Positions 38,607-63,658 of a stretch of 64,000 nucleotides of DNA are shown in pieces. Made by a program: the position numbers and the translations under genes. A model generated the notes under the pieces. The model had not been told where the DNA came from, did no database searches, and saw only the letters and a list, made by a program, of their open reading frames with translations. Source of the DNA: a candidate division WOR-3 bacterium (GTDB lineage: Bacteria > Hydrothermota > Tepidihabitantia > Tepidihabitantales > Tepidihabitantaceae); NCBI GenBank assembly GCA_039801365.1, contig JBDRUN010000001.1, positions 37,711-101,710 of the forward strand. The letters are read 5' to 3'. Within the stretch, counting starts at the first letter, position 1. Each line of letters starts with the position of its first letter.

Positions 38607-38627
38607 GCCTGGGAGAAAGTAGAGCGA

Positions 38628-38660
38628 GTTACAGCGTTACATGTTACAGGTTACAAGTTG
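38628..38660 (+). repeat. Short array of the GTTACAG heptamer (GTTACAG-CGTTACAT-GTTACAG-GTTACAA)
   Basis: Seen in sequence between nikR and the TonB-dependent receptor gene. It is the same heptamer as the arrays at 57003–57088 and 57584–57616. Confidence 0.7.
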
Positions 38661-40596: not shown

Positions 40597-41544
40597 ATGG
40601 CAAGGTCAGACAGCTTGATTCGAGCCAGTGGCTTGAAGTGGTGGAATGGTGCGAATGGACGACTATGGCTTCTGTCCGGCTGGGTGCTGGTGGCCATTGC
40701 GCTGGGGCTGGCAGTTTTTGGTTGCGCGGCCAGGCCTGGTTCCCGGCTCCGGGTCGTGACCACCACTACGCTTATTTCTTCCATAGTTGAAGCGATTGGT
40801 GGCAAGTATGTGCAGGCTACCGCCATTGCGCCTGGTGGCATGTGTCCGGGCCATTTCGATATTCCACCTTCGGCCGTGGCTGCGGCAAACGATGCCCAGC
40901 TCCTACTCAATCATGGCTGGGAAGAGTGGTTTGCCAAGCTGGAGCAGGCGTTGCACAATCCCAGAGTGATACGCCGGACGCTGAGCACCAAGGGCAACTG
41001 GATGGTGCCGGCTATACACAAGCAGGCGGTAAAAGAGGTTCTGCAACTGCTCGTGGAAATAGACAGCGCTCACGCGGACAGCTTCCGCCTGGCCGCACAA
41101 TACTATACAGCGCAAATAGATTCCGCTGCGGCCCAGGCGTGCAGCCTTTTTTCCGGCCGGGCCATGCCCAGAGTAATTGCGGCTGAGCATCAGGCTCCTT
41201 TCCTGCGCTGGCTGGGATTTTCTGTGGTTGCCACCTATGGCCGGCCCGAAGAATTCACCGCTCAGGAACTGGTGCGTCTGGCCCGGGTAATGGCCGACTC
41301 CGGGGTCATGCTTGTCGTGGACAATCTGCAGTCCGGTTCAGATGCAGGCAAGCCACTCGCCGAAGCCCACGGCGTAGCACATGTCACCCTGACTAATTTC
41401 CCGCTACCCGGCAAAGCCAAAAACCAAAAGAGCAAGAAAGCCGGAAAGCCAGAAAGCCAGAAAGCAGAAAAGCCAGCCTACTGCCAAGCGCTTCTTGACA
41501 ACGCCCGCGCCCTTGCTTCTGCTCTGGAAGGCTTGAATCCCTGA
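40597..41544 (+). CDS. Metal ABC transporter substrate-binding protein (TroA/ZnuA-like cluster-9 SBP)
   Basis: Signal/TM anchor. CPGHFD motif. Placed between the TBDT and the ABC ATPase. Confidence 0.75.
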   Translation: MARSDSLIRASGLKWWNGANGRLWLLSGWVLVAIALGLAVFGCAARPGSRLRVVTTTTLISSIVEAIGGKYVQATAIAPGGMCPGHFDIPPSAVAAANDAQLLLNHGWEEWFAKLEQALHNPRVIRRTLSTKGNWMVPAIHKQAVKEVLQLLVEIDSAHADSFRLAAQYYTAQIDSAAAQACSLFSGRAMPRVIAAEHQAPFLRWLGFSVVATYGRPEEFTAQELVRLARVMADSGVMLVVDNLQSGSDAGKPLAEAHGVAHVTLTNFPLPGKAKNQKSKKAGKPESQKAEKPAYCQALLDNARALASALEGLNP

Positions 41545-51759: not shown

Positions 51760-52041
51760 TCACCACTTGCCGTAGAACTCGGTGATGTCGAAGTAAAGCG
51801 TCTTCTCCGTGCCGTCGGACAGCTTTACGCACATCATATCCCAGCGCCGGCCCTCGGTTTCGCCCACGGCCTGCATCTCAAGCTTCCAGTCGCGACCCTG
51901 CTTACCGAACTTCTGCGCCAAGAACGCGTACTCGGCCGCAACGCCCGCGACATGACTCGATGCTCCGTGGATGACGATGGAAGTCTTAGGTGACTCCCCG
52001 CCCCGGTCATCATACGTTATCTCCGAACCAGATTCCTTCAT
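51760..52041 (-). CDS. Hypothetical small protein
   Basis: 93-aa ORF immediately downstream of hsdM on the same strand. No recognisable motif. Confidence 0.3.
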   Translation of the reverse strand: MKESGSEITYDDRGGESPKTSIVIHGASSHVAGVAAEYAFLAQKFGKQGRDWKLEMQAVGETEGRRWDMMCVKLSDGTEKTLYFDITEFYGKW

Positions 52042-52248
52042 TGGTACCTCCTCGCCTTGCGGCGCTGTTTGTTCTGACCCAGATTCCTAATGTATCACTT
52101 TCCCATAGTGCTCGAATACCAGCGCGTCCCCGCAGAAGTGGCAATGGCCGTGCGTTTGTCGAAAACTGCCCGACGCAACCTGCCGGTCATTGATAATACC
52201 TTCCAGCTTGCCGTGTTTCGGCCGCGGTTGCCACGTGCCAATGGATTT

Positions 52249-53844
52249 TCATTGACCCTCCTGCTTGCTGTTTCGCGACAGGCTCCGCAGTCGCGCCACT
52301 GCCTCGGCCACGAGCCTGCCCTGTTCTTCAATCGCGTCCAGCAATTGCTCCGGCGTGCGGGTATCTTCCACGACTTTGCGGTTCGGGTTCACCGCCTTCA
52401 AGTCGAGCCCACGTTTCTCCAGTTCCTCCCGCGTCACGGTCCAGCTCCTCTCGCTCTCGCCCCGCTGGGGCAGAAGCCGAAAGAAGTCCTCGAACCGGTC
52501 CCGGGTCAAGGGCTTCTTCTTTGTCACCTTCACGTCCGAGATGTCGTAGTACCAGACTTTCTCGGTCGGCCTGCCCTTAGTGAAGAACAATAGGTTCGCC
52601 TTCACGCCCGCACCCGCGTTGATGAACGTGCCCGGCGGCAGGCTGATGATGGCCCAAAGGTCGCACTCGTCCAATAGCTTCCGCTTGGTCTGCACGAAAG
52701 CGTTCTCGTTGGTGCGGAAGAGCACACCTTCATCCAGCACGATACCGGCGCGCCCGCCCGGCTTCAGGGAGTCAATTACATGCTGGAGAAACAGCACCTG
52801 CGTGGCGCTGGTTCTGTAAGCAAAACGGGTCTGAGCCTCTTTGCTCTCCTTCCCGCCGAATGGCGGATTCATCAGGATGACATCGTACAGGGAAGGCGCT
52901 CCGGTAAACAGACCGCCATATATTTCCTGTCCGGTCAGGGTATTGCCGTGCCAGATGTGCGGTTCGTCAATCTCGTGCAGGACCAGATTGGCAAGCGCAA
53001 TCGGATAAATGGTGTTGTCCTTCTCCCGGCCAAAGAAGGTTCTACGTTTGAGGATATCCATCTGGTCAGCGGTGACGTTCTCGCCCAGGCGGGCCCGGAT
53101 GTGCGCGTAGGTCTCGGCCAGGAATCCGCCGGTTCCGCAACACGGGTCGTACACCGTTTCTCCTACCTTCGGGTCTATTCCGCGCACCAGCACCCGGATA
53201 ACCTCGCGCGGTGTGAAAAACTGGCCGCCGTCATTGTTCTTCTCGCCCATCTTGAGCAAAAGACCTTCATACACCTGAGACAAGGCGAACACGTGGGTCT
53301 GGTCAACCGTCTCGTGCGACAGCTCGTTCACCTTGTCTAGCACGTCCAGGAGGTTCCGCTCGGTATCAATTCGCGTGCGCTCCACGCCGGAGAAGATTTC
53401 CGAGATAACCTTCTGCCGCGGGGTGGCGTTCGGCTTGTCCTTCAGCGCTTTCAGGTGTGGAATCAGGTCCCGGTTCACGAAGTCGTAGAATGCGTTGGTC
53501 GCGCCTTCCACCAGCGCCTTACGCTTCTTTCCGTCGGGCGCGGCCCAGTCGCGCCAGCGGTAGGGTGGTTTCAAAGACGGCGTGAACGGCACGGACAGCG
53601 CCTCGGCCTCAATCGCCTCGCGCTGTTCGCGCTCATCCAGAATCCGCAGGAAAAGAATCCAGGTCAGCTCCGGCACGTACTGCATCGCACCGGCGCAATT
53701 CGACCGGCGCATAATGTCGCAGATGGACTTCACAGCGGAATTGACCGAAGCGGGAGAGGCTAGGAGTTTTGGATTTTGGGTTTTGGATTTTGGATTGAGA
53801 GGGGAACGAGGACGATTCTGGGTTTTGGATTTTGGACTAGGCAT
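52249..53844 (-). CDS. hsdM: Type I restriction-modification system methyltransferase subunit HsdM
   Basis: HsdM_N-like …SICDIMRRSNCAGAMQYVPELTWILFLRILDE…. SAM motif DPCCGTGGFL. Catalytic NPPFG (ILMNPPFGGKE). The first roughly 40 codons (PKSKTQN…) are encoded by the TTTTGGA repeat array, so the start could instead be an internal codon. Confidence 0.85.
   Translation of the reverse strand: MPSPKSKTQNRPRSPLNPKSKTQNPKLLASPASVNSAVKSICDIMRRSNCAGAMQYVPELTWILFLRILDEREQREAIEAEALSVPFTPSLKPPYRWRDWAAPDGKKRKALVEGATNAFYDFVNRDLIPHLKALKDKPNATPRQKVISEIFSGVERTRIDTERNLLDVLDKVNELSHETVDQTHVFALSQVYEGLLLKMGEKNNDGGQFFTPREVIRVLVRGIDPKVGETVYDPCCGTGGFLAETYAHIRARLGENVTADQMDILKRRTFFGREKDNTIYPIALANLVLHEIDEPHIWHGNTLTGQEIYGGLFTGAPSLYDVILMNPPFGGKESKEAQTRFAYRTSATQVLFLQHVIDSLKPGGRAGIVLDEGVLFRTNENAFVQTKRKLLDECDLWAIISLPPGTFINAGAGVKANLLFFTKGRPTEKVWYYDISDVKVTKKKPLTRDRFEDFFRLLPQRGESERSWTVTREELEKRGLDLKAVNPNRKVVEDTRTPEQLLDAIEEQGRLVAEAVARLRSLSRNSKQEGQ
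53766..53838 (+). repeat. (TTTTGGA)n-type tandem array (GTTTTGGATTTTGGGTTTTGGATTTTGGATT … GGGTTTTGGATTTTGGAC)
   Basis: Seen in sequence between the Fic stop and the hsdM start. It overlaps the N-terminal codons of the long hsdM ORF. Confidence 0.8.
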
Positions 53845-53850
53845 GACGGT

Positions 53851-54855
53851 TCACCTCAACAGATACTTACCCGATCTCCGCGTACCGGAGCGCTTTACCA
53901 GCCCGGCCGCAACAAGCGGTTTCAGAAGGTCCAGGGCACCCTGTTTCGAGACGCCGAGCGCCTCGCGTATCTCGCGCGGGCTCATCGCCTGGCGGTCGCG
54001 CAGGAGCGCCAGCAACTGCTCCTGTTTTGGCCGCAGCACCACTTTCTCCGTGCTCTGGTCGGCGGCCAGCCGCTGGATGCGCAACCAGACCCGTTCCAGC
54101 ACGAGTCGCAACCCGGTGGCGCAGTATTCCAGCCAGCCGGTGAGGTTGCCGCCCTGCCGGCCGACCTCACGCAGGGCCTCGTAGTAACGCGGTCGGTCCT
54201 CCCAGAAGTACTCGTCCACCGAAAAGATGTGATGCGTGTCGAAACCGCGGCGATAAAGCTCCCACAGGGAAAGAAGCCGGCCGACCCGGCCATTGCCGTC
54301 GCCGAATGGATGAATGTCCTCGAAACGATGATGCACGATGGGGGACGAAATGACCGCAGACCAGTCCCGCGCCGAGCCGTTCCACCAGTCCAAAAGGTCG
54401 GACATCAGAGGTTCAACTTGCTCGGGTGGCGGCGGCTTGTGCGGCCCAACCCATACCTGGATGCGGCGATATGCGCCCTCCTGGCCCTGGTCCATCACAC
54501 CCCGGCAGGCAATTAGATGAAGCCGTAGAATGTCCCGGTGCACGAGCCGGCGCTTGGCCGCGTGCGTCTCGATGTAACGCAGGGCCGCGAAGTAGTTCAG
54601 CACCTCCTGCCGCGAACGGTCCGCAATGGCCGGAACGTCACGGCCTTGCGCGAGGTCACGTACCTGCTCCTGAGTCAAAGGATTCCCCTCGATGGCAGTC
54701 GAACTGTGCGTGTTTCTCACCCTTGCGTCTTGCTGAAGCCGGGGAATCCACGGCACCTGCACGGTTGCGGCCAGCACCCTTGCCCGCAGTGCGGCGATTT
54801 CCTCAATGAGCGCAACCAACCGCGCCGTTACCTCAAACGCCGGTACGTATGCCAC
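53851..54855 (-). CDS. Fic/DOC family protein (putative AMPylase) with C-terminal wHTH
   Basis: Canonical Fic motif HPFGDGNGRVGR. C-terminal winged-helix (…MSPREIREALGVSKQGALDLLKPLVAAGLV…). Confidence 0.85.
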   Translation of the reverse strand: MAYVPAFEVTARLVALIEEIAALRARVLAATVQVPWIPRLQQDARVRNTHSSTAIEGNPLTQEQVRDLAQGRDVPAIADRSRQEVLNYFAALRYIETHAAKRRLVHRDILRLHLIACRGVMDQGQEGAYRRIQVWVGPHKPPPPEQVEPLMSDLLDWWNGSARDWSAVISSPIVHHRFEDIHPFGDGNGRVGRLLSLWELYRRGFDTHHIFSVDEYFWEDRPRYYEALREVGRQGGNLTGWLEYCATGLRLVLERVWLRIQRLAADQSTEKVVLRPKQEQLLALLRDRQAMSPREIREALGVSKQGALDLLKPLVAAGLVKRSGTRRSGKYLLR

Positions 54856-54913
54856 GGTTCTACTCTACAATAAGTCAAGTATAAGTCAAGTTATTAGTCA
54901 AGCCAGGACTGCA

Positions 54914-54942
54914 ATTTTGGATTTTGGGTTTTGGATTTTGGA
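54914..54942 (+). repeat. (TTTTGGA)n-type tandem array
   Basis: AATTTTGGATTTTGGGTTTTGGATTTTGGA, immediately 3' of the four-helix-bundle gene. Confidence 0.8.
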
Positions 54943-55299
54943 TTAGGCGCGGGAGCGTCTCAAAGTCTTGATGGATGCTACCGTCATCGCCAAGATGTTG
55001 TCGGCTTCAGCCATCAGGTTTTCCGTATCCGGCTCGGATGCAAGGCGAGCGGCGACGAGCAGGTCCAGCCAATAGATGACCTCATCGGCTTCCTCCTCAA
55101 CGATTGCCAGTTTGGCAAGCATATCGGCCCGTGACCGGGCCCGGCAGGCCGCGCGGTAATTCGCGCCGACCGACGTGGCGCACCGCAATAGTTGCCGGCC
55201 GATGACGTCTGCGCAACGGCTCCGCGGCAGCTCATCAACCAGCCGGATGGCCTCCAACCCGAGTTTTCTGGTCCTATCCTTGAACTCCTGCTCAGTCAC
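54943..55299 (-). CDS. Four-helix-bundle protein (TIGR02436 family; '23S rRNA intervening-sequence protein')
   Basis: 118 aa. …EAIRLVDELPRSRCADVIGRQLLRCATSVGANYRAACRARSRADMLAKLAIVEEEADEVIYWLDL… is the characteristic pattern. Confidence 0.8.
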   Translation of the reverse strand: MTEQEFKDRTRKLGLEAIRLVDELPRSRCADVIGRQLLRCATSVGANYRAACRARSRADMLAKLAIVEEEADEVIYWLDLLVAARLASEPDTENLMAEADNILAMTVASIKTLRRSRA

Positions 55300-55352
55300 C
55301 GCGCCTCCTCAACCCAGAATCCGCGACCCTCGCTCTTCTGCTCCTTCTCTGC

Positions 55353-55436
55353 CAATCCAAAATCCAAAATCGGCAATCCAAAATCATCTGCGCCCCCATT
55401 TCCGCCAATCCAAAATCCCCAATCCAAAATCCAAAA
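55353..55436 (-). repeat. (TTTTGGA)n-type array in inverted orientation (CCAAAATCCAAAATC … CCAAAATCCAAAATC)
   Basis: Seen in sequence between the hsdS stop and the four-helix-bundle start. It is the reverse complement of the 54914–54942 array. Confidence 0.8.
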
Positions 55437-55997
55437 TCAGATGTCTCCTCTAAACGCCTTCCGCAACAGCGCGGCCGGCAGTTTGTTGATTGTTTCCAAC
55501 TGGGCCTCAAGGGCCAGTCGGTGCTTCTCGGCCTCGGCCATACGTTCATTCAGCATCCCCGCAATCCGCCTCTGCTCGGAAAGGGGAGGAAGGGGAAGGA
55601 CAATCTCAGCCGCGACCTTCTGGTTCAGCTTGGCCCTCGTCGCACCGGCGACCATATCGCCCACATCGGGCCGGATTCGGATGGCCAGCAAGCAGTAGGC
55701 AAAGTCAATGCTATCAGGTCTTGGTCTGAGCACGTGAGCGTGGTTGTTGACCCAGTACTTGCCAGCCACAGCATAGGCGATAGGTCTGTCAGCGGATCCA
55801 AAGAACCCGCCGTCCTCGGCGAGCAATATCAGCGGTTCATCGAAAAGGTATCCGTCTATCCAACCCACTTGGCCATTGGCACCATAGTAGGGGTATAGCT
55901 CTGCCTGTTTCTTTCCCGCGATGCGCCGCATTCTGTCGGGTTCATTGACGGGCACTCTCCGGCCGTCTAAGAACTCGCACACCTCTCCCAGCTTCAC
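55437..55997 (-). CDS. hsdS: Type I RM specificity subunit HsdS (single target-recognition domain, half-size)
   Basis: 186 aa. One TRD followed by the conserved coiled-coil region …LPPLSEQRRIAGMLNERMAEAEKHRLALEAQLETINKLPAALLRKAF. Confidence 0.75.
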   Translation of the reverse strand: MKLGEVCEFLDGRRVPVNEPDRMRRIAGKKQAELYPYYGANGQVGWIDGYLFDEPLILLAEDGGFFGSADRPIAYAVAGKYWVNNHAHVLRPRPDSIDFAYCLLAIRIRPDVGDMVAGATRAKLNQKVAAEIVLPLPPLSEQRRIAGMLNERMAEAEKHRLALEAQLETINKLPAALLRKAFRGDI

Positions 55998-56046
55998 CCA
56001 TCGCCAGCCGGGGGGGAAGGGGGCGTTGAACGCCTGTGCTCAAGAC

Positions 56047-56955
56047 CTATGCCTCCTCGTAGCTGCGCTGCAGCAAGGTCTGTGCCTTCTGCAGGCTTGT
56101 CTGGTCGGTAACCACTACTTCCAAGTCGCCCGTGCCCCAATGACCAATCTGGCTGACGTCGCGGGTGAACCCAGTCTCCAGCTTCACCGACTTGGGGTCG
56201 AGCTTGAGATACAGGGTAAGCGCCTTGCGGCTGAATTCCACGCAGGCGAAGTTCTTGATGCGGCGGAAGGCCACGTAGAGCTTGAGTTGCTTCTCGGTCA
56301 CGTCGTCGCCCAGGGCAAGTATGAACGCGCGCAGAGAGTCGTAAAGGTCGCGCATCTGAGGACTCATTTCCCTTAGCCAAGTGGCAACGGTCTTGTCTGT
56401 CCCGCCGGCTGAAACGCGGCTGCGGCGGCGGACAGACGCCGGCTCTTCGCCTGTCGCTCTGTAGACAAGGTCGAGTGCCAAGAGCTCGTCGCCGAACCTT
56501 CGGTAGCGCACCAGTTCCACGTTGCGGCCCATCTGCTTGACCGCGTGTTCGTCGTACTTGGTAAAGTCGGCAGCGATGCAGAGCAGGCGCGGGCCGGTCC
56601 AGTCTATTGCATTGGCCGCCTTCTGCCCCAGTTTCTTCTGTACCAGCAACTGGAACTCGGCCTTGTGGTCGAGAAGCCAGTCCAGGTAGAAAAGGCCCTG
56701 GTTGATGACATTCTCGTTCGTCGCCTTCTTGTATTCGATGATGACCGGGCAGTTGTTCTCGTCTATGCCGAGCGTGTCAATGCGGCCGGCGTGGCTCTTG
56801 CCGGTAGAGTATTCCGAGTCAAGGAAGCGAACCCCGAGCATCGTCTCCAGGTTCTTTTCGACGACGTCCTGAAGTGATTTCTCAAGCGGCGTTGCCTTGC
56901 CCGGCAGTTCGGTCGCCTTGTTGCCGCTCAGGCGGAAGAGTTTGATTTCGCTCAT
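56047..56955 (-). CDS. PD-(D/E)xK nuclease-fold protein with C-terminal domain of unknown function
   Basis: N-terminal …GRIDTLGIDENNCPVIIEYKK… looks like the D…(D/E)xK core. Total 302 aa. It is embedded in the RM locus. Confidence 0.5.
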   Translation of the reverse strand: MSEIKLFRLSGNKATELPGKATPLEKSLQDVVEKNLETMLGVRFLDSEYSTGKSHAGRIDTLGIDENNCPVIIEYKKATNENVINQGLFYLDWLLDHKAEFQLLVQKKLGQKAANAIDWTGPRLLCIAADFTKYDEHAVKQMGRNVELVRYRRFGDELLALDLVYRATGEEPASVRRRSRVSAGGTDKTVATWLREMSPQMRDLYDSLRAFILALGDDVTEKQLKLYVAFRRIKNFACVEFSRKALTLYLKLDPKSVKLETGFTRDVSQIGHWGTGDLEVVVTDQTSLQKAQTLLQRSYEEA

Positions 56956-57002
56956 CGGACGCTCCTTTCAGAAAGAGCTGGGGAACAGGGCAGAGTCACG
57001 GC

Positions 57003-57088
57003 GTTACAGATTACAGCAAGAAAGTTACAGGTTACAGAGTTACAGGTCACAGCAGAAAGGTTACAAGTTACAGGGTTACAGGTTACAG
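57003..57088 (+). repeat. About 10 tandem copies of the GTTACAG heptamer with short spacers
   Basis: Seen in sequence, e.g. GTTACAG-ATTACAG-caagaaa-GTTACAG-GTTACAG-aGTTACAG. It ends 2 bp before the stop of the second four-helix-bundle gene. Confidence 0.85.
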
Positions 57089-57090
57089 GA

Positions 57091-57576
57091 CTATTGGTCA
57101 TTGGCTTTGCGTTTGCGTTGTTCGGCCAGTTCGTCTAGAATCCGACTCCTTTCTTCCGCGGCTGCCACCGCCTGTTGTTGTCTTGCGTGTTGTTTCTGGC
57201 CCGGCATTCCGGAGCCCTGAAGGTATTGGATGAATCTGTATAGCATCGCGCTGAGCCGGCGGCATTGCGCACTCGCCGAATCGCAGTCTTTGGCGCTGAT
57301 ATAGCCCTGGTCACGCGCAATGCCAAGCTGGGCCCGGACTTCGCCGCAGGAGCCTTTGGCGACGTAGAGAAACTGCACGAGTTCCTGCGTCGAACCGCGT
57401 TCGTGCCCTTCCGCGATGTTGGACATGATGGAGACCGCGGCCCGGCGAATCTGGTCAACAAGGCTGCGGTCCCTGGTGAATGCCGGTTGCCGCGTGAGAG
57501 CATAGACCTGGTTGGTCAGTTCTCGCGCCTGCTGGTAGACCTTCAGTTCCTCGAACTTCTGTACCGTTTCTTTCAT
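57091..57576 (-). CDS. Four-helix-bundle protein (TIGR02436 family), second copy
   Basis: Start reset to MKETVQKFEELKVYQQARELTNQVYALT…. The core …IRRAAVSIMSNIAEGHERGSTQELVQFLYVAKGSCGEVRAQL… matches the family. Confidence 0.8.
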   Translation of the reverse strand: MKETVQKFEELKVYQQARELTNQVYALTRQPAFTRDRSLVDQIRRAAVSIMSNIAEGHERGSTQELVQFLYVAKGSCGEVRAQLGIARDQGYISAKDCDSASAQCRRLSAMLYRFIQYLQGSGMPGQKQHARQQQAVAAAEERSRILDELAEQRKRKANDQ

Positions 57577-57583
57577 CTCCCCC

Positions 57584-57616
57584 TCTCTGTAACTCTGTAA
57601 CCCTGTAACCTGTAAC
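57584..57616 (-). repeat. GTTACAG heptamer array in inverted orientation (plus strand reads CTGTAAC x4)
   Basis: Seen in sequence immediately 5' of the second four-helix-bundle gene. It is the reverse complement of the 57003–57088 array. Confidence 0.8.
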
Positions 57617-57622
57617 ACATCT

Positions 57623-58075
57623 CTACGCCGCAAACAGTCTGACCTTGGTTTCTTTGAGTATTTTGGCCGGCTTGCCCAGTTCGGCTAGCGCTTTCACTCC
57701 GCCGGCACGTTTGACCTTCGGGGTCTGGAATACTTCCGGGTTTTCCAGTCCTTCGGTGCCCGCAAGGGCAAACTGGGCAGCAAGGGCTTTGAGGGTAGCG
57801 GCCGCGTTTTCGGGCAGGCTGGCAAGCCACTCTGCATGTTTATAGGAGAATGCCTCAGCCCGCTCTGCGCGCGTGCGCGGAGCAAGGCCGTAGCCGAGTT
57901 CGGCCAGGACGTCGTACAGGTCATAGTCGTCCATTTCTTCCACGCGCTGCACCAGCGAGGGTGAGTAGCCGGCGCTAACGAGGGCATCGATGAGTGCGCG
58001 GCGGCGGGCAGGTTCTACCAAGCGGTCGCGGAACGCCTCGAGCGTCGGCGCTTCGGCCACGAGTTTGGCGGCCAT
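57623..58075 (-). pseudogene. hsdR: Detached C-terminal domain of type I restriction enzyme HsdR (EcoEI_R_C-like)
   Basis: 150-aa ORF. …VEEMDDYDLYDVLAELGYG… resembles the HsdR C-terminal domain. It is separated from the helicase fragment by 9 bp and a frame break. Confidence 0.55.
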
Positions 58076-58084
58076 CCGTTCCTT

Positions 58085-59098
58085 CTATTCTTCTACTGTG
58101 ACGGGTATTGCCCTGCCATCCACTTCGGTCAGAATGTATTTGCCGGCCGGGGTGACGCGGACCTCGAATCCTTCTACGCGGATGGGCGGTTCAGGCGGAG
58201 GCGAAGGCTCGCGCTTTTCGCTTGATCTAGTCGGTCGGGACAGGAACTCTTCGCCGAATAGCCGAGTAGCGTTGGTGTAGTCGTAGACCGTGAATGCTAG
58301 TTTGCCCGAAGGCGGGTCAATGCGCGTGCCCCGGCCTACCATCTGGTAGAAAGCGATAGGCGATTTGACATACTTAAAGAAGGCGATGTTGCGCACACAG
58401 GGCACGTCCACGCCGGTGGTCAACAGGTCAACGGTGGTGGCGATGAAGTGGTGGCGCGAGGCACCGCGGAAGTCAGGAAGCTGGTCGTTACCCGAAGCAG
58501 AGGCGGTGCATTTGAAAGCGTAGGGTTCTGCCCGGGGGTGGCCGTGCTCTTTGCACCAGCGGGCGTACAGGTTGTTCATTTCCGCAGCCACATCGTCCGC
58601 ATGTCGGTCGCGGGTGCAGAAGATGATTGTTTTCTGTTCCGGGCCGCCGGTTTCGCACAGATAGGCAAAGAGGTCGGCGCACATGGCAGACACCCGGTCG
58701 GGCAGCAGAATGCGGTTTTCGTAGTCGGTTTTTTCGTAGAGCTGCCTCAACCGGTCGGAAGAAACCGGCTGGCCGGTGTCCGCATCAACCGGTTCGCGGG
58801 CCAAAATGTCGTCAATGGTGATACCGGTGTCGTCCAGGTTGACCCGGCCTTTCTGTATCAGGCAGGCGGCAAGGTATCCGTCTTCTATCGCCTGGGCCAT
58901 GTCGTATTCGTACACCGGCTCGCCGAAGTACGCAAGGTTGTCAGCGGTAATCTTCGCGTCTGCCTGCGCCTCGCGGGTCTTCTCGGTAATCTTGAGCGAA
59001 CGGGGCGTAGCGGTGAGTCCGATGTGTACCGCATCCGGGTTACGGGTAAGTACCTGAGACCATTTGCCCCAGGCTGAGCGATGGCATTCGTCAATCAC
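58085..59098 (-). pseudogene. hsdR: HsdR helicase-core fragment (starts at motif II; N-terminal nuclease domain and motif I are missing)
   Basis: The ORF begins MIDECHRS (DECH box). It then runs GLTATP (motif III) and the …QMVGRGTR… arginine finger (motif VI). In-frame stops lie immediately upstream, and no ORF follows for about 330 bp. Confidence 0.7.
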
Positions 59099-59426
59099 AA
59101 TGTGGCTGAAGTGATTCTCCGGATAGAACTCGGTGAGGAAGCTGGCGTCGTCGTCTTCGCGGGCAATACCCAGAGTTTGGTAGGTGGCGACGTGGATGCG
59201 GGCGTTGCGGGCGTGGTTCTTGCCGTCCGGGTAGCAAGTAACTCAATGACGATCGTTCCCCTCTGACCTATTCTGCTTCGGACTCAGCTTTCTCCTCCAA
59301 TTGAGAACAGTACTAACCCACGGTTTCGACTTTCTTCAGCTCAGAAAGCGGGGGCGTCCCTGGTATTCCCAAGACCTGACCCCAACCGGCCGGCTGAGAA
59401 TCATCCGCTGTGTCACAAGAACTTTC

Positions 59427-60224
59427 CTACTTCGGCGGCCAGAAGACACCGAGCACCAAGAAACTCCGTGGGTGCAGAAATACATTGCCTACATAGAACC
59501 ACGTGTCCTTGTCCGACCTCAGCATCTCGCCTTCCCACTTCTGTCTGACCTTGCGCAGCACGTCCTGCTCGCAGTTCTCTCGGTCCCGGAGTGTGCGGTA
59601 CAACTGCATCAACTCCCAGTCAATGACGGACAGGTCGTGTCCTCGGCAGCGTTCCTCGCCTGCGCACCTGAAGCGGTAGCCAAAACGGTAGGGTATGGGT
59701 TCAATTGCCTGCTTGGCTCCGGCAAAGGCGTCAAGTTGGTCATAGAACGCAGCCCTGAACTCAGCGCTGGTAGTATCAACCGGCTCGGCGTAGAACCTCA
59801 CGTTCTCCGGCTTGACCAAGCCCAGCGATGTGGCCGACTTTGCCTGCTCGTCCTTCAGGGCGCAGAGCGACGCGGCCCTAAGCGGCAATACGATCTCACG
59901 CCTTCTGGCCCACTTGCGCTTGGTGTCCCACGCCTGCTCGACAACCCTGATGCTGTTGCGGTCTACACGGAAGCTCTCCGGACGGGTGTCTTTCGACGTT
60001 CGGCTCACTCGAGCCTCGATGACGGAGTACTTGCTGAACCGCTGCCACGAGTTCAAGTCCCGGAAGGGCACCGGATAGAGCCTAATCCACCGTTTCGCTT
60101 CCAGGTCAATGCCGGCTACGCACACGGTCTCGGTGTATTTCCGGCTCGGATTGGGATAGGTCTTGACCGTGACGAGGATGCGGCGGGTCTGCCAGTCCAA
60201 AACTACAAGTGCCGGACCACGAAC
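59427..60224 (-). CDS. Hypothetical protein (defence-island gene, no recognised family)
   Basis: Long ORF (…VKTYPNPSRKYTETVCVAGIDLEAKRWIRLYPVPFRDL…). The annotated start overlaps the DUF488 gene by 109 bp, so I propose an internal GTG. The start remains uncertain. Confidence 0.4.
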   Translation of the reverse strand, partial: VRGPALVVLDWQTRRILVTVKTYPNPSRKYTETVCVAGIDLEAKRWIRLYPVPFRDLNSWQRFSKYSVIEARVSRTSKDTRPESFRVDRNSIRVVEQAWDTKRKWARRREIVLPLRAASLCALKDEQAKSATSLGLVKPENVRFYAEPVDTTSAEFRAAFYDQLDAFAGAKQAIEPIPYRFGYRFRCAGEERCRGHDLSVIDWELMQLYRTLRDRENCEQDVLRKVRQKWEGEMLRSDKDTWFYVGNVFLHPRSFLVLGVFWPPK

Positions 60225-60721
60225 TGATGGCCGTTGCGTCCCGCCAAGACCAGAGCCAACAGCGACCTGTGACACTGCTTCGGGTCGCGCTCGTAGCACA
60301 GGAGACAACACGGCTTGGCCACAGCCATCTGGTAGAGAGATTCCACAGAGTCATCCACCGTGGCGACGTAGGCAAGATACTGACGGGCAAGTTCCTCGAA
60401 GCTGCCAGTCATCCTGTACTGCTTACGCACAGCTACAGGTGTTCCCAACTCGCGCAGGCTCACGTATTGGATACCATTCAAAGGAAGGAAGGTTGCCAGA
60501 GCCGACTTGGAAAAGCCCCGCCTGCGGCTCAGCGGCAATTGACGAACGTCCGCCACGACGGCCACCTTTTCCTGCTTCAGCACAGCAATGAACTCATCGG
60601 TCGTCCGCCCTTCATAACCGGCTGTCAACAGCGGAAACACGGGGCACGCCACGCCACAGCCTACTCCTATCCGACCGTCGGTCAAGCCCGTCCGGTTATC
60701 GATGACACCAGGGGTTGTCAA
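60203..60721 (-). CDS. DUF488-family protein
   Basis: …TAGYEGRTTDEFIAVLKQEKVAVVADVRQLPLSRRRGFSKSALATFL…GIQYVSLRELG… fits the DUF488 (YeaO-like) signature. Confidence 0.65.
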   Translation of the reverse strand: MTTPGVIDNRTGLTDGRIGVGCGVACPVFPLLTAGYEGRTTDEFIAVLKQEKVAVVADVRQLPLSRRRGFSKSALATFLPLNGIQYVSLRELGTPVAVRKQYRMTGSFEELARQYLAYVATVDDSVESLYQMAVAKPCCLLCYERDPKQCHRSLLALVLAGRNGHQFVVRHL

Positions 60722-60934
60722 AGAACCGGCCGGTGTCCATTCTTCACACTCAGCTTCCCCCAGGTCGGCCGCGTGTCAAACAGAGAAAGGGTTCCAGGGG
60801 CGAGAGGCCAAGGGTTCGGTTTTGGGAAGAGGGAGCAGGACGCTGGGGCTAGTAACTGTCGGCCCGCAAAGCGCAAGATTCAGAACCTGACCCCGGGTTC
60901 CTCACTGTTGCGGACCCCGAAGCTGTAATACCGC

Positions 60935-63658
60935 TCAGTCCTGTACGGTGAACTCTCCTCCAAGCCGCAGCTCGCGGAGGGCAGCGTTGAGTTGCTGGCG
61001 GACGGCTGGGTCCTTGAGCTTGGCCTTGATGAAGACCTCGATCTCGACGCCATCGGCGCCGGCCAGTCTGGCCAGAACGCGATGGCTGAGCAGATTCCAC
61101 ATGTCGCGTGGGATGTTGCCACGCCACTCGACCGTCGTCGGCTGGACGGTCTTGGCTTCCGGCTTCGGCGGCTCAATGATGACGGTCGTATCGCCGCCCG
61201 GCGGCGCGAAGATGTCGCCCGGCTCCGTTACGCCGCCTGTCTGCGTACCGGCCTTCGCGACCTTCGCCCGCTCGGGCAAGAGTAGAAACGTTTCGTGGTC
61301 GAACTTGACCTCAGCCGGGTCAACGGTCTCTCTGAACCATATTCTGTGCAAGTGCAGCTCGTCCTTGCCGACACCCATGCCCAACGCGCCCTGCGGTACG
61401 GCCTTCTGTATCAGCGCCAATAGAGCTTCGTCGGCGCGCTCCAGCCGCGTGAGCGACCCTTGGAAGAACGCCGCCTTCAGACTGGCGAGCGACCACGCGC
61501 CTGTCTTCTTCAACGCTTGGGGCCACTTTCGCTCAACGTACGTCGGCCCGATTTCCCGGTTCAGCAAGTTGGCTTGGCGCATCCGGGACAGTATCGCGCC
61601 AGTGATGCCGCGTGCTTCGCTGGGATGCATCATCCCCAACGTCAGCTTCTGCAGGGACCCTGCCTTTGCGTCCCAATACAGAAGGCTGCTGTATAGACTC
61701 CAGACTCTCTCTTCAACCCTGGAGTACGCCTTCTTGACCTCTGTCCTCGCCATCTGCTGCTCGTGTGGCTCCAGTTCGCCCATGCTCCCTGCTTCCACCT
61801 CGTCGGCGATGACGGTCCACGCCATCCAGTCAGCGACGTCCTTCTGCAGGCCGGTGGCAGACTCAGGCATCACCCATAAGACTGCGCCCGGATACTGGCG
61901 TGGGGACTGACCGCAGTTCACAGTCCAGGCATTCAACTGCTCAGTCTGCCTCTGATCCAATTCGCTGTCAGGCGTCCCGACCACCAGCCGCAGCACCGGC
62001 CGGTCGGATACCTCGGCCGAGTCCTTGGGGAAGAACTGGGCCTCAATCTTAGCGTTCTTGCGGAACACCTGCGTGACCACGGCGCGCGTCTGCTTCTCCA
62101 CGTCGGCCGGGTTCAGGCCAGCCTTGCGGTCGGCGTGTATCTTGCGCAAGGTGGGCGAGCAGCCAAACTTCCACCCACCGGTCCCGACCGGACGCAAATA
62201 GTAGCAGCGGCTGACCAGGGCTTGGACGGCAGTATCTACAAGCGTTGTCTCGGTTTCCGCATCTCCAAGCGCGAACCGCAGGTCGGAAAGCGTCGCTACT
62301 TTGTCGGAAACCATGCCGCCACATGACTCAAACAGTAGCGCTGTGGCCACGCGCTGGTGCAGGTTCGTCCTGCCGACGGTGTCGCTCAGCTCCTTGTCCA
62401 GAGCAACCGCAACTGCGTTCTCACCGGAGATGTCATAGTTGATAGCGTGTTCCAGCCGCGTTTCGCCCATCTGTTCCAACACCTTGGACCGAAATTCCCG
62501 ATTACTCAGCGGTGCGGAGCCAAGGGTTATCAGTGGCTCTCTGCGTGCGCAGGCATAGCCTTCCCTGGCCGCTATGGCAATCCACATTCCAAGCATCACC
62601 AAAGTACCACGAGTCTGCTGAAATGAGGGCAGCGAAGCCCACTTGCGCTGGAACACGGTCAAAGTGCTAGGGTGAAACGGATAACATGCCTCAAATCGTT
62701 TCCTTATGACTTCTTCACCAAAATTGGCGAACTCCGCGGGCAGCCGATCCCGGCGTTCGAACACCCAGCGGGCGTACTGCCGTGCCGCGGCCTGCTGCAT
62801 GCTCTTGCGGCCCGGGTCTTCAAACAGCCTGCGCCGCACAATCTCGGAAATCTCCTCTGGGTCATTCGCCAGAAGCGGCTGGCCCACCCGGTCAGTCAGC
62901 TTCGACAGCTTGATTTGCCACTCGCATAGCTCATCGGTCATCTCGGTCGGCGACGCAGGCAGGCTGAACACGCCAACCGCATTCTGCCGGGCCGTTAGCG
63001 CCGTAGTGAGATTCTGCAGGAACGAATGGAACTGAGTAGCCAGATTCCCATAGCGGCCGATGAAGTTGAGCGTCTCATCAAACAAGAACAGAATCGGCGC
63101 GTCAACCAGGGCAAAGAGTTTCTCCAGGACTTCTGTGCCGGGTGCCCGCTGCTTGAAATCCTCGCCGATGAGCTTCCGGCCAGCGTCGCCGGCCAGTTGC
63201 ACCGCCACGTCAATCCATGGCGTCTCGCTGCCTGACTTCTGGTCCCAGGAGTTACCCACGAACACGGCGACCCGCGCCTTCGGCACCTGCTTCAGGCCTA
63301 TGGCAGAAAGCAGCTCCGGCACACCGGGATATGCTTGGGCCGCTGGCCCGGACTTGGCCAGATGATAGAGCGCCGCCAACGTGTGAGTCTTGCCGCCGCC
63401 GAACTGGGTGAGCATGGAAAGCACCGGCGCGGTGCCGGAAGTCTCGCCGGCCAGTCGGCGCAGCACTTTGCCGCAGTAGTCGGTAACAAGCGCCTTGGTG
63501 AAGTACGTGCGGCCAAAGAATTGCTCCGGGTTCTTGTAGTCATCCGGCGCTCTGCCCGAGACTATCTGGTCCAGATGCACCGCGAACTCGCTCGGGTCCA
63601 GTGACCGGCCCTCGCGCAATTCCTTACGTGGTGTTGCTACCTTGTACCATGGTTCCAT
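60935..63658 (-). CDS. DUF499-family ATPase (predicted defence-system NTPase)
   Basis: 907 aa. The N-terminus MEPWYKVATPRKELREGRSLDPSEFAVHLDQIV…FFGRTYFT… and the P-loop FGGGKTHT are what I recall as the DUF499 hallmark. Confidence 0.75.
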   Translation of the reverse strand: MEPWYKVATPRKELREGRSLDPSEFAVHLDQIVSGRAPDDYKNPEQFFGRTYFTKALVTDYCGKVLRRLAGETSGTAPVLSMLTQFGGGKTHTLAALYHLAKSGPAAQAYPGVPELLSAIGLKQVPKARVAVFVGNSWDQKSGSETPWIDVAVQLAGDAGRKLIGEDFKQRAPGTEVLEKLFALVDAPILFLFDETLNFIGRYGNLATQFHSFLQNLTTALTARQNAVGVFSLPASPTEMTDELCEWQIKLSKLTDRVGQPLLANDPEEISEIVRRRLFEDPGRKSMQQAAARQYARWVFERRDRLPAEFANFGEEVIRKRFEACYPFHPSTLTVFQRKWASLPSFQQTRGTLVMLGMWIAIAAREGYACARREPLITLGSAPLSNREFRSKVLEQMGETRLEHAINYDISGENAVAVALDKELSDTVGRTNLHQRVATALLFESCGGMVSDKVATLSDLRFALGDAETETTLVDTAVQALVSRCYYLRPVGTGGWKFGCSPTLRKIHADRKAGLNPADVEKQTRAVVTQVFRKNAKIEAQFFPKDSAEVSDRPVLRLVVGTPDSELDQRQTEQLNAWTVNCGQSPRQYPGAVLWVMPESATGLQKDVADWMAWTVIADEVEAGSMGELEPHEQQMARTEVKKAYSRVEERVWSLYSSLLYWDAKAGSLQKLTLGMMHPSEARGITGAILSRMRQANLLNREIGPTYVERKWPQALKKTGAWSLASLKAAFFQGSLTRLERADEALLALIQKAVPQGALGMGVGKDELHLHRIWFRETVDPAEVKFDHETFLLLPERAKVAKAGTQTGGVTEPGDIFAPPGGDTTVIIEPPKPEAKTVQPTTVEWRGNIPRDMWNLLSHRVLARLAGADGVEIEVFIKAKLKDPAVRQQLNAALRELRLGGEFTVQD

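What the first reader, a model, noticed from the sequence alone, without database searches (positions are those of the whole stretch)
53851..54855. Fic/DOC gene wedged between hsdM and hsdS and flanked by direct (TTTTGGA)n arrays
Fic-domain proteins inside type I RM operons are a recurrent but functionally unexplained association. Here the insertion boundaries are marked on both sides by the same microsatellite-like array (53766–53838 and 54914–54942). This suggests cassette-like acquisition using these repeats.
Basis: partly seen in the sequence, partly recalled or inferred. Interest (0 to 1): 0.55.

Follow-up and report, generated by a model that had tools for sequence, protein, structure and literature searches.

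The report
Fic gene inside repeat-armed cassette
A defence-type Fic gene has been inserted into the repeat "arm" of an older small-gene cassette lying between two restriction-modification genes; such repeat-armed cassettes prove to be widespread, which makes the old puzzle of the ribosomal-RNA "intervening sequence" genes easier to study.

Summary
A 334-aa Fic gene (53851-54855, minus strand) is bracketed by same-orientation TTTTGGA arrays, two of which are 30/30 identical.

- a 118-aa four-helix-bundle gene (4HB; PF05635, "23S rRNA intervening-sequence protein") at 54943-55299;
- an inverted TTTTGGA array set at 55354-55438.

The arrays are the two arms of this 4HB cassette. A second 4HB gene 2 kb away has the same design with GTTACAG arms.

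Three related hsd operons give a series:
- hsdS|hsdM directly abutting, no arrays (L211);
- hsdS-arm-4HB-arm-hsdM with one 3' arm (L208);
- the window, where 1,117 bp carrying Fic sits in that arm, which is now triplicated.

So a single array does mark the empty site, but the array belongs to the 4HB cassette, not to Fic.

In 69 metagenomic 4HB genes, 7-9-nt tandem arrays abut the ORF (2.4/kb versus 0.20/kb elsewhere). The upstream and downstream arms are mutually complementary: 65% reach the score threshold versus 6% of mismatched controls.

The Fic matches the SoFic anti-phage model and carries its own conserved promoter/operator.

How Fic was inserted, and whether the arms work as an RNA stem, are inferred, not shown.

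The parts
52249..53844 (-). hsdM (type I methyltransferase, 531 aa). Its first ~28 codons are the TCCAAAA arrays B1 and B2.
   Evidence: Pfam N6_Mtase 1.6e-59 and HsdM_N. The family has a natural ~25-aa basic N-terminal tail. In this lineage the array encodes that tail, with 14 extra codons in the window.
53767..53796 (.). Array B2: a copy of the 3' arm, 30/30 identical to array A. It is the right-hand direct repeat of the Fic insertion.
53797..54913 (-). 1,117-bp segment that is absent from the empty-site operon L208. In the direction of transcription it runs: 12-nt linker, promoter/operator, Fic ORF, array B1 with the hsdM ATG, 16-nt spacer.
   Evidence: blastn of L208 against the window. 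L208 3958-3988 aligns to both 54944-54914 and 53796-53766.
53814..53844 (.). Array B1 plus the hsdM start codon (ATGCCTAGTCCAAAATCCAAAACCCAGAATCG), 7 nt after the Fic stop codon.
   Evidence: Similar sequence follows the Fic stop in L002 and L213.
53851..54855 (-). Fic gene. It is a class-II-type Fic with a C-terminal winged helix and resembles SoFic.
   Evidence: Pfam Fic 3.9e-16 and MarR_2. PADLOC SoFic 4.5e-57 over 26-328. The motifs STAIEG and HPFGDGNGRVGR are visible in the translation. The closest solved structures are Fic/FICD AMP-transferases.
54862..54903 (-). Fic promoter/operator: three 11-nt direct repeats (CTTGACTnATA) containing TTGACT-16 nt-TAGAGT.
   Evidence: TRF 54870-54902. 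Promoter-like match at 54889-54862. The repeats are conserved upstream of Fic in all 7 independent contexts.
54914..54944 (.). Array A: the 3' arm copy that abuts and overlaps the stop codon of 4HB #1. It is the left-hand direct repeat of the Fic insertion.
54943..55299 (-). Four-helix-bundle gene #1 (118 aa; PF05635 / TIGR02436).
   Evidence: Pfam 58.9 bits against a cut-off of 33.8. TIGR02436 81.2 bits against 24. It is 70% identical to the L208 4HB.
55354..55438 (.). 5' arm U of cassette #1: two inverted TTTTGGA sub-arrays (55354-55385 and 55405-55438) with a spacer. It begins at the hsdS stop codon.
   Evidence: U pairs with B over 74 bp at -90.9 kcal/mol.
55437..55997 (-). hsdS, C-terminal half with a single TRD (186 aa).
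   Evidence: Pfam Methylase_S. It aligns only to residues 287-388 of the L207 HsdS. L001 has a full 416-aa hsdS.
57003..57089 (.). 3' arm of cassette #2 (CTGTAAC units on the coding strand).
57091..57576 (-). Four-helix-bundle gene #2 (161 aa).
   Evidence: Pfam PF05635 5.3e-35. TIGR02436 2e-34. It is identical to P0122 from a candidate division WOR-3 MAG.
57585..57616 (.). 5' arm of cassette #2 (GTTACAG units on the coding strand).

Best explanation
The locus is a set of nested insertions in a decaying type I R-M operon. The operon lies in a defence island of a candidate division WOR-3 bacterium.

**Step 1 (shown by comparison).** A small cassette lies between hsdS and hsdM. It consists of a four-helix-bundle (4HB) gene, of the family first found inside 23S rRNA intervening sequences, flanked by two inverted arms. 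Each arm is a tandem array of TTTTGGA. The 3' arm also supplies the hsdM start codon and its basic N-terminal tail.

**Step 2 (shown by comparison).** A self-contained Fic module was placed inside that 3' arm. The module is a SoFic-type AMP-transferase with its own promoter and a triple 11-nt operator. The arm is now present three times (A, B1, B2). This is why Fic appears bracketed by direct TTTTGGA arrays.

**Step 3 (inferred).** The insertion used the repeat arm itself as a short patch of homology or a slippage-prone break site, not a dedicated recombinase. The perfect repeat is 30 bp, about the minimal length for RecA-type pairing (from general knowledge).

**Step 4 (inferred by analogy to rRNA intervening sequences).** In a read-through transcript the 5' arm pairs with the B arm in a 74-bp stem. 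The stem encloses 4HB and Fic and buries the hsdM start. It would be an RNase III substrate. hsdM would then depend on the Fic promoter or on ribosomes opening the stem.
For: **Anatomy**
- A PF05635 gene lies between Fic and hsdS.
- An inverted array set lies at 55354-55438.
- The second 4HB gene has the same design with GTTACAG arms.
- Both 4HB genes fold inside long terminal stems, with z -5.8 and -3.0.

**Three states of one junction in operons with 79-82% identical hsdM DNA**
- L211: hsdS TAG|ATG hsdM, with no arrays.
- L208-L210: arm-4HB-arm, with one 3' array overlapping the 4HB stop and the hsdM ATG.
- Window and L001: the same, plus 1,117 bp carrying Fic between two 30/30 identical arm copies.
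- L207 keeps the 3' arm in front of hsdM behind a different Fic gene.

**Generality of the 4HB cassette design**
- In 69 metagenomic 4HB genes, the best inverted-repeat score between the upstream and downstream flanks has a median of 17, against 8 for mismatched pairs. 65% reach 14 or more, against 6%.
- Period 7-9 arrays lie on both sides of 43 of 69 genes. Their density is 2.4/kb near the gene and 0.20/kb elsewhere in the same loci.
- ORF and arms are co-inherited in otherwise unrelated contexts.

**Autonomy of the Fic module**
- 86% nt homology to L002 is confined to 53841-54903.
- The promoter/operator is conserved in 7 contexts.
- The Fic matches PADLOC SoFic at 4.5e-57.

**Repeat-associated insertion elsewhere**
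- Direct repeats containing arrays flank Fic in L212 (74 nt) and L214 (32 nt).
- No recombinase, transposase or reverse transcriptase lies within 47.7-63.7 kb.

**RNA pairing**
- U:B is -90.9 kcal/mol and U:A is -49.3 kcal/mol. In the minimum-energy fold of the 1.7-kb transcript, U pairs with B.
- rRNA intervening sequences that carry an S23p ORF have a 28-bp terminal stem cut by RNase III (PMC4990558).
Against: - **Distant comparator.** The empty-site comparator is a relative at about 80% identity, not a sister strain. The only other filled example (L001) is the same species.
- **Order of events unresolved.** The sequence just after the Fic stop in L002 and L213 resembles B1 (TGAAnnGnC-A/G-TGCCT-A/G-GTCC). 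Fic may therefore have sat in front of this hsdM before the 4HB cassette arrived.
- **Donor problem.** A homology-driven insertion needs a donor that already carries an arm copy. This only moves the problem back one step.
- **Two repeat-free contexts.** Two of the seven independent Fic contexts, L002 and L213, show no flanking repeat.
- **No RNA-specific signal.** Arm mismatches show no excess of G:U over A:C (76 versus 63, p 0.31). Nothing shows that the complementarity is kept for the sense RNA rather than at the DNA level.
- **Arrays occur without 4HB genes.** TTTTGGA arrays in 120 loci of other genomes have no 4HB gene nearby. Heptamer arrays therefore also exist independently of these cassettes.
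- **No experiments.** There are no expression or cleavage data.
Confidence: 0.6

Rival explanations
1. The Fic module is a mobile cassette whose insertion machinery, encoded elsewhere, targets tandem heptamer arrays. It makes staggered cuts, so the flanking arrays are long target-site duplications.
For: Direct repeats containing different heptamer arrays flank Fic in three independent contexts: 30 nt in the window, 74 nt in L212 and 32 nt in L214. Shuffled controls never exceed a score of 15. Heptamer arrays lie within 150 nt upstream of the operator in 5 of 7 contexts. A single array marks the empty site.
Against: No recombinase or transposase lies near any copy. The distance from the repeats to the module, and the length of the repeats, differ in each context. 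Two contexts have no repeat. In the window the array predates Fic as part of the 4HB cassette.
Confidence: 0.15
2. The arrays are simple-sequence contingency repeats. Because the heptamer tract lies in the 5' coding region of hsdM, gain or loss of one unit would shift the frame and switch the methyltransferase on and off (a phase-variable type I system). On this reading their position around Fic is incidental.
For: The arrays lie inside the hsdM reading frame. A 7-nt unit is not a multiple of 3. The window carries an in-frame expansion of 42 nt (6 units) relative to L208. Repeat tracts in R-M methyltransferase genes are a known phase-variation device (general knowledge).
Against: The tracts are short (3-4 units) and imperfect. 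Copy number and frame are identical in the two strains available, the window and L001. All relatives are in frame. This reading does not explain the inverted partner array, the second cassette with other units, or the general link with 4HB genes.
Confidence: 0.1
3. Coincidence. Heptamer arrays are common intergenic simple repeats in this genome and phylum, and they have no relation to the history or function of Fic or the 4HB gene.
For: Other 7-8-nt arrays occur at 10504, 30495, 38627 and 41413 in the window. TTTTGGA arrays occur in more than 120 loci across at least six phyla, without 4HB genes. Heptanucleotide repeats are reported as the most abundant long simple repeats in many bacteria (PMC4679880).
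Against: The 30/30 identity of the two copies, together with a single-copy empty site and an array-free basal junction, argues against coincidence. So do the 12-fold enrichment of arrays next to 4HB genes and the locus-specific complementarity of their arms.
Confidence: 0.07
4. The arrays are protein-binding sites, for example for the pentameric 4HB protein or a cold-shock/S1-type RNA binder. They would regulate translation of the flanking genes. Their complementarity would be a by-product.
For: The arrays abut the ribosome-binding site of the 4HB gene and cover the hsdM start. A translational-regulator role has been proposed for TAACTGA heptamer arrays just upstream of start codons (PMC4679880). 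Units in many loci resemble each other (RGTYMAA-like).
Against: Unit sequences and periods (7, 8 or 9) differ widely between cassettes, while the proteins are conserved. Upstream and downstream arms are reverse complements, not the same motif on the RNA. Nothing here tests binding.
Confidence: 0.08

Closest known systems
23S rRNA intervening sequences that carry an S23p ORF (Leptospira, Coxiella)
   Same: The protein family is the same (PF05635 / TIGR02436). The ORF almost fills a loop closed by long terminal inverted repeats. The element sits inside a transcript without a recombinase of its own (PMC4990558).
   Different: Here the host is an mRNA operon (hsdS-hsdM and hsdR-PDC-S18), not 23S rRNA. 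The arms are tandem arrays of 7-9-nt units. One arm is also coding sequence of the next gene. RNase III excision is not shown.
SoFic single-gene anti-phage defence (PADLOC model; Shewanella oneidensis SoFic AMP-transferase)
   Same: The match to the PADLOC SoFic model is near full length, at 4.5e-57. The catalytic motif HPFGDGNGRVGR is present, as is an N-terminal inhibitory motif STAIEG. There is a C-terminal winged helix. The gene sits in a defence island.
   Different: It falls far below NCBI's SoFic equivalog cut-off (54.7 versus 550 bits), so it is a relative and not an orthologue. It carries a conserved triple 11-nt operator. Defence activity is untested.
Accessory defence genes embedded in type I R-M operons (PrrC/RloC anticodon nucleases; general knowledge)
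   Same: A stand-alone effector gene sits between hsd genes. Related operons carry Abi_C, GmrSD, another Fic, DUF3800 or PDC-S18 at the same junctions.
   Different: No functional coupling to the R-M enzyme is shown. Here hsdR is a pseudogene, so a guard role for restriction is unlikely in this strain.
Cyanobacterial STRR-type and other tandem heptanucleotide repeats (for example TAACTGA arrays of Beggiatoaceae, Cyanobacteria and Bacteroidetes)
   Same: These are short tandem heptamers at gene boundaries, in the same phyla. TTTTGGA arrays themselves occur in Nostoc, Calothrix, Kordia, Acidobacteriota, Chloroflexota and others (PMC4679880).
   Different: Here the arrays occur as matched inverted pairs enclosing a gene. 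No paper found in the held library links such arrays to 4HB genes.
23S_rRNA_IVP genes inside cas operons
   Same: A 4HB gene lies wedged co-directionally between genes of a defence operon, for example between cmr3 and cmr2 (PMC3936711).
   Different: That report does not mention flanking repeat arms. In my sample the neighbours of 4HB genes are mostly ordinary genes, not only defence genes.

Membership tests
Fic/Fido AMP-transferase (PF02661) | Pfam score above the gathering cut-off, and the catalytic motif HxFx(D/E)GNGRxxR | tested here: met
   60.1 bits against a cut-off of 24. HPFGDGNGRVGR is present in the translation.
Class II auto-inhibited Fic | Inhibitory motif (S/T)xxxE(G/N) N-terminal to the Fic core | tested here: met
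   S52-T-A-I-E56-G57 in the translation. The motif definition is from general knowledge of Fic classes.
SoFic anti-phage defence system | Match to the PADLOC SoFic model | tested here: met
   E 4.5e-57, residues 26-328 on model positions 38-346 of 361.
SoFic anti-phage defence system | Orthology to S. oneidensis SoFic (NCBIfam equivalog cut-off) | tested here: not met
   54.7 bits against a cut-off of 550.
SoFic anti-phage defence system | Protects cells against phage | not testable with these tools
   This needs a plaque or efficiency-of-plating assay.
Four-helix-bundle protein (PF05635 / TIGR02436) | Scores above the curated cut-offs | tested here: met
   Gene #1: 58.9 bits (Pfam cut-off 33.8) and 81.2 bits (TIGR02436 cut-off 24). 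Gene #2: 120.3 and 118.1 bits against the same cut-offs.
23S rRNA intervening sequence (IVS) | Located within a 23S rRNA helix | tested here: not met
   Both cassettes lie between protein-coding genes. No Rfam hit in 52000-58500.
23S rRNA intervening sequence (IVS) | Terminal inverted repeats forming a long stem around the ORF | tested here: met
   The same holds in 65% of 69 other 4HB genes.
23S rRNA intervening sequence (IVS) | Excised from the transcript by RNase III | not testable with these tools
   The G:U versus A:C test for RNA-level constraint was inconclusive (76 versus 63).
Diversity-generating retroelement accessory protein (Avd) | Adjacent reverse transcriptase and template/variable repeat pair | tested here: not met
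   No reverse transcriptase was found among the ORFs scanned in 47.7-63.7 kb.
Type I restriction-modification system | Intact hsdR, hsdM and hsdS | tested here: not met
   hsdM is intact. hsdS is a half. hsdR is 5'-truncated and has an in-frame stop.
Phase-variable simple-sequence repeat | Repeat-number polymorphism between strains that changes the frame | tested here: not met
   The window and L001 have the same copy numbers and the same 531-aa ORF. Only two strains were available, so this is weak.
Transposon or integron-type cassette | Own or neighbouring recombinase, and defined ends | tested here: not met
   No recombinase lies nearby. The ends of the Fic-bearing segments differ between contexts.

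The most novel reading that the evidence does not exclude
Four-helix-bundle ("IVS protein") genes with inverted arms made of tandem 7-9-nt repeats form a widespread, so far undescribed class of intervening cassette. On this reading the cassettes:
- colonise operons of all kinds, with the rRNA intervening sequence as just one special case;
- travel as ORF plus arms;
- are tolerated because the arms let the cell cut them out of, or fold them away in, the transcript.

Their repeat arms, and the ORF-less heptamer hairpins found in many phyla, would also act as portable recombination patches. Through these patches other genes, such as SoFic-type defence genes, would be captured and shuffled between operons.
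Probability: 0.3. Interest if true: 0.8.

Novelty: new variant of a known kind. Interest (0 to 1): 0.55.

Why it matters
- **The original puzzle becomes an ordinary case.** The Fic-in-R-M association here is a SoFic-type defence gene landing in a defence island. The decaying hsd operon has junctions that accept many accessory genes.
- **The repeats point to something less ordinary.** The ORF found in 23S rRNA intervening sequences has had no known role for 30 years. Its relatives occur in many bacteria as small cassettes inside ordinary operons. Each is closed by arms built from tandem heptamers, octamers or nonamers.
- **This gives testable material.** There are defined stems to test with RNase III. 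There is a three-state natural series of one junction (no cassette, cassette, cassette plus Fic).
- **It suggests a hypothesis for gene shuffling.** Short repeat arms may shuffle genes in defence islands without a dedicated recombinase.
- **It is a warning for annotation.** Here a repeat array is also the start of a methyltransferase gene.

Tried and rejected
1. **Are TTTTGGA arrays specific to 4HB genes?** No. A 4HB profile built from 120 homologues found no 4HB gene in any of them. 31 of the 120 are ORF-less inverted pairs.
2. **Does an RNA-level signature show in the arms?** No. An excess of G:U over A:C among arm mismatches was not found (76 versus 63, p 0.31).
3. **Exact-sequence look-up of the Fic ORF** failed when given as a window reference. 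It worked through the identical database protein P0001.
4. **Fic relatives in viral contigs:** none.
5. **Rfam families over 52000-58500:** none at E up to 1.
6. **Do 4HB cassettes prefer defence operons?** No. Their neighbours are mostly ordinary genes (SelA, SufBD, citrate synthase, T2SSE and others) with a few defence genes. 74 of 94 neighbours are co-directional.
7. **Is the strain difference between the window and L001 bounded by the arrays?** No. The variable block (56799-55597) ends inside the PDC-S18 gene and inside hsdS.
8. **Literature.** No paper in the held library links four-helix-bundle / PF05635 genes to heptamer or tandem-repeat arms.
9. **Context of P0251.** This HsdM starts MPSPKSKTQNRKSL, identical to B1 over its first 11 residues (MPSPKSKTQNR).
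Full report
**1. What is in the sequence**

All genes in 52-64 kb are on the minus strand. In the direction of transcription they are:
- a DUF499/HmaC ATPase (60935-63658);
- DUF488 plus a DuOB protein (60203-60721 and 59427-60311; PADLOC candidate system PDC-M19);
- hsdR fragments (about 59260-57623);
- a 161-aa four-helix-bundle (4HB) gene (57091-57576);
- a NucS/DUF5655 protein (56047-56955; PADLOC PDC-S18);
- a half-size hsdS (55437-55997);
- a 118-aa 4HB gene (54943-55299);
- the Fic gene (53851-54855);
- hsdM (52249-53844).

The source is a candidate division WOR-3 bacterium. 4HB #2 and HsdM are identical to proteins from a 137-kb WOR-3 MAG contig.

**2. The observation**

- The 14-mer TTTTGGATTTTGGA with up to 2 mismatches occurs 13 times against 0.37 expected. 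Twelve of the 13 lie in 53767-55436.
- Two copies, 53767-53796 and 54915-54944, are identical over 30 nt.

- A PF05635 gene lies between Fic and hsdS.
- A further array set lies at 55354-55385 and 55405-55438, in the opposite orientation.

On the coding strand the order is therefore:

hsdS stop - (TTTTGGA)n [arm U] - 4HB - (TCCAAAA)n [A] - promoter/operator - Fic - (TCCAAAA)n [B1] - 16-nt spacer - (TCCAAAA)n [B2] - rest of hsdM.

**3. The arrays are the arms of the 4HB cassette**

The second 4HB gene, 2 kb upstream, has the same design with a different unit. GTTACAG repeats lie at 57616-57585 and CTGTAAC repeats at 57089-57003. Both genes fold inside long terminal stems, with z -5.8 and -3.0 against shuffles.

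I sampled 80 metagenomic loci that encode relatives of these proteins. For the 69 genes with both flanks present:
- The best inverted repeat between the upstream and downstream flanks has a median score of 17, against 8 for flanks paired across loci. 65% reach 14 or more, against 6% of controls.
- Tandem arrays of period 7, 8 or 9 directly abut the ORF. 43 of 69 genes have them on both sides.
- Array density is 2.4 per kb within 150 nt of the gene, against 0.20 per kb elsewhere in the same loci.
- Units differ from locus to locus (GTCCAAA/GGACTTT, GGTCCAAG/TGGACCTT, GTTTGAACG and others). Within a locus the two sides are reverse complements.

In several pairs of loci, nucleotide homology covers the ORF plus 40-85 nt of arm and then stops. 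Examples are L138/L139, L181/L204, L200/L204 and L142/L153. So ORF and arms are inherited together in different surroundings.

Neighbours are co-directional in 74 of 94 cases. They are mostly ordinary genes, with a few defence genes.

This is the architecture described for rRNA intervening sequences that carry an S23p ORF. Those have terminal inverted repeats and a 28-bp stem cut by RNase III (PMC4990558). Here the host is an mRNA operon and the arms are tandem short repeats.

23S_rRNA_IVP genes between cas genes have been noted before (PMC3936711). I found no paper in the held library that links the family to heptamer or tandem-repeat arms.

**4. Three states of the same junction**

Relatives of this hsdM were looked up in their contigs (hsdM DNA 79-82% identical).

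| State | Locus | Junction |
|---|---|---|
| 0 | L211 | hsdS stop and hsdM start abut (TAGATG). HsdM begins MAVRRQLN. No array. |
| 1 | L208-L210 | hsdS - degenerate TTTTGGA arm - 4HB - one TCCAAAA array - hsdM |
| 2 | window, L001 | State 1 plus a 1,117-bp Fic segment within the 3' arm |

Details of state 1:
- The 4HB protein is 118 aa and 70% identical to the window's.
- The 4HB stop and the hsdM start overlap (ATGCCTAA).
- The array encodes the HsdM tail MPNPKSKTQNRKSL.

Details of state 2:
- The single L208 array (3958-3988) aligns to both A (54944-54914) and B2 (53796-53766).
- The 1,117 bp between them (54913-53797) has no counterpart in L208.
- L001 is a second strain, 92-97% identical to the window across the three blocks that align. 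It has the same arrangement and the same array lengths.

L207 has a different Fic gene (Fic_N plus Fic, 384 aa) at this junction. The same array is retained in front of hsdM.

HsdM proteins of this family normally start with a basic tail of about 25 aa. In this lineage the array encodes that tail. The window has 14 extra codons from the spacer plus B2.

But the array was brought by the 4HB cassette, not by Fic.

**5. The Fic module**

Homology to the nearest other copies covers only 53841-54903. These copies are L002-L006, 87% identical in protein and 86% in DNA.

Every one of seven independent contexts keeps three 11-nt direct repeats (CTTGACTnATA) just upstream of the start codon. The contexts are the window, L002, L212, L213, L214, L215 and L217. 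In the window the repeats contain a promoter-like TTGACT-16 nt-TAGAGT. I infer a self-contained, probably autoregulated unit, with the C-terminal winged helix as the likely operator binder. This is not tested.

The protein has these features:
- the catalytic motif HPFGDGNGRVGR;
- an N-terminal inhibitory motif STAIEG;
- a match to the PADLOC SoFic defence model at 4.5e-57;
- a score far below NCBI's SoFic equivalog cut-off, 54.7 versus 550 bits;
- Fic/FICD AMP-transferases as the closest solved structures.

The other contexts are varied:
- after hsdM in another type I operon (L002);
- next to a Dcm-type methylase (L212);
- among toxin-antitoxin and Abi genes (L217);
- among ordinary genes in a WOR-3 chromosome (L213).

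**6. How Fic got there**

Direct repeats that contain heptamer arrays flank Fic in three independent contexts, each with a different unit:
- 30 nt (TCCAAAA) in the window;
- 74 nt (CTACCTA) in L212;
- 32 nt (CACGCAT) in L214.

Shuffled controls never exceed a score of 15. L002 and L213 have no such repeat. Heptamer arrays lie within 150 nt upstream of the operator in 5 of 7 contexts.

No recombinase, transposase or reverse transcriptase lies in 47.7-63.7 kb of the window or next to the other copies. The repeats vary in length and in their distance from the module.

I therefore favour insertion through the repeat arm itself, by short-homology recombination or repair at a slippage-prone tract. 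The alternative is an enzyme with a fixed staggered cut. This is an inference.

One complication concerns the order of events. The first ~20 nt of B1 resemble the sequence that follows the Fic stop in L002 and L213. The module may once have sat in front of this hsdM. So the order of arrival of 4HB and Fic is not settled.

**7. Possible function of the arms**

- As RNA, arm U pairs with B over 74 bp at -90.9 kcal/mol. It pairs with A at only -49.3 kcal/mol.
- In the minimum-energy fold of the 1.7-kb transcript, U pairs with B. This encloses 4HB and Fic and buries the hsdM start codon.
- By analogy with rRNA intervening sequences, this stem would be an RNase III substrate.
- Cleavage would separate hsdM from the upstream operon. 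hsdM would then depend on the Fic promoter.

The test I could run for RNA-level constraint was negative. Arm mismatches show G:U 76 against A:C 63, p 0.31. So the complementarity may equally be a DNA-level property.

ORF-less TTTTGGA hairpins occur in 31 of 120 loci from other genomes. The order TTTTGGA...TCCAAAA outnumbers the reverse order 30 to 3. The reverse order would place a U-run after the stem, as in a terminator. Avoidance of termination is one possible reading, and it is untested.

**8. Rival explanations**

- A heptamer tract in the hsdM coding region could act as a phase-variation switch. However, the tract is short and imperfect, and it is identical in the two strains available.
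- Pure coincidence is unlikely. The copies are 30/30 identical, an empty site and an array-free site exist, and arrays are 12-fold enriched at 4HB genes.
- A dedicated array-targeting insertion system cannot be excluded, but no gene for one is seen.

**9. Verdict**

A repeat-associated insertion with a single-array empty site is seen. But the repeats belong to a neighbouring 4HB cassette and to a widespread repeat class.
- The Fic gene itself is an ordinary SoFic-type defence gene in a defence island.
- The more interesting result is general. PF05635 genes are intervening cassettes with arms made of tandem 7-9-nt repeats. Such arms may serve as junctions for gene shuffling.

Noticed in passing
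window 57623-59260 (minus strand): hsdR is a pseudogene. It matches only residues 245-789 of a related 789-aa HsdR. It also has an in-frame stop, between the ORFs 58085-59098 and 57623-58075.
   Followed up: partly
window 59427-63658: More defence-island content lies upstream. DUF488 plus a dual-OB protein match PADLOC candidate system PDC-M19 A/B. A 907-aa DUF499 ATPase matches HmaC. No Hma helicase or methylase partners were looked for.
   Followed up: no
window 55597-56799 versus L001 1634-4082: The two strains differ by a block swap. The window has a PDC-S18 (NucS/DUF5655) gene plus a half hsdS. L001 has a 62-aa remnant, a GmrSD/HNH gene and a full 416-aa hsdS. The break-points lie inside genes, not at the arrays.
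   Followed up: partly
window 54862-54903; L002 7585-7618; L212 748-779; L214 568-600; L215 931-971; L217 2952-2985: Three 11-nt direct repeats (CTTGACTnATA) with an embedded promoter-like TTGACT/TAGAGT are conserved upstream of every copy of this Fic family examined. This is a likely operator for its winged-helix domain. L217 has an extra copy of the repeat block about 200 nt further upstream.
   Followed up: partly
L007-L126 (for example L059 5316-5420, L085 3199-3297, L120 652-720): ORF-less hairpins of the form (TTTTGGA)4 - short loop - (TCCAAAA)4 occur in Acidobacteriota, Cyanobacteria, Chloroflexota and others. The order TTTTGGA...TCCAAAA outnumbers the reverse 30 to 3. In cyanobacterial examples they sit among other heptamer arrays (GGTAATT, CCAGTCA).
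   Followed up: partly
window 30495-30532, 38627-38659, 41413-41476, 10504-10535: Solo 7-8-nt tandem arrays (CCCTTGAA, GTTACAG-like, AAAGCCAG, GCGTGAG) occur elsewhere in the window without a 4HB gene. The one at 38627 uses the same unit as the arms of 4HB #2. The ones at 30495 and 41413 fall inside long ORFs.
   Followed up: no
window 24093-24964: A 288-nt unit is repeated three times in tandem with 81% matches (TRF score 1100). It was not examined.
   Followed up: no
L211 4016-4690: A 224-aa ORF between hsdR and hsdS gives a precomputed PF05635 hit but only a weak match to my 4HB profile. It contains an internal 10-nt tandem repeat (GTCCGTGTC-like, about 6 copies, 4444-4506), so a repeat array lies inside a 4HB-like gene.
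   Followed up: no
L199 versus L205 (second 4HB gene, 2147-2554): The flanks are homologous (74-76%), but the 4HB cassette between them does not align at the nucleotide level. This suggests replacement of one cassette by another at the same site.
   Followed up: no
L212 1842-1880 and L214 480-512: Two Fic copies share a CAGAAAT array. It lies upstream of the operator in L214 and inverted downstream of the gene in L212. An ancestral Fic module may itself have had inverted arms.
   Followed up: no
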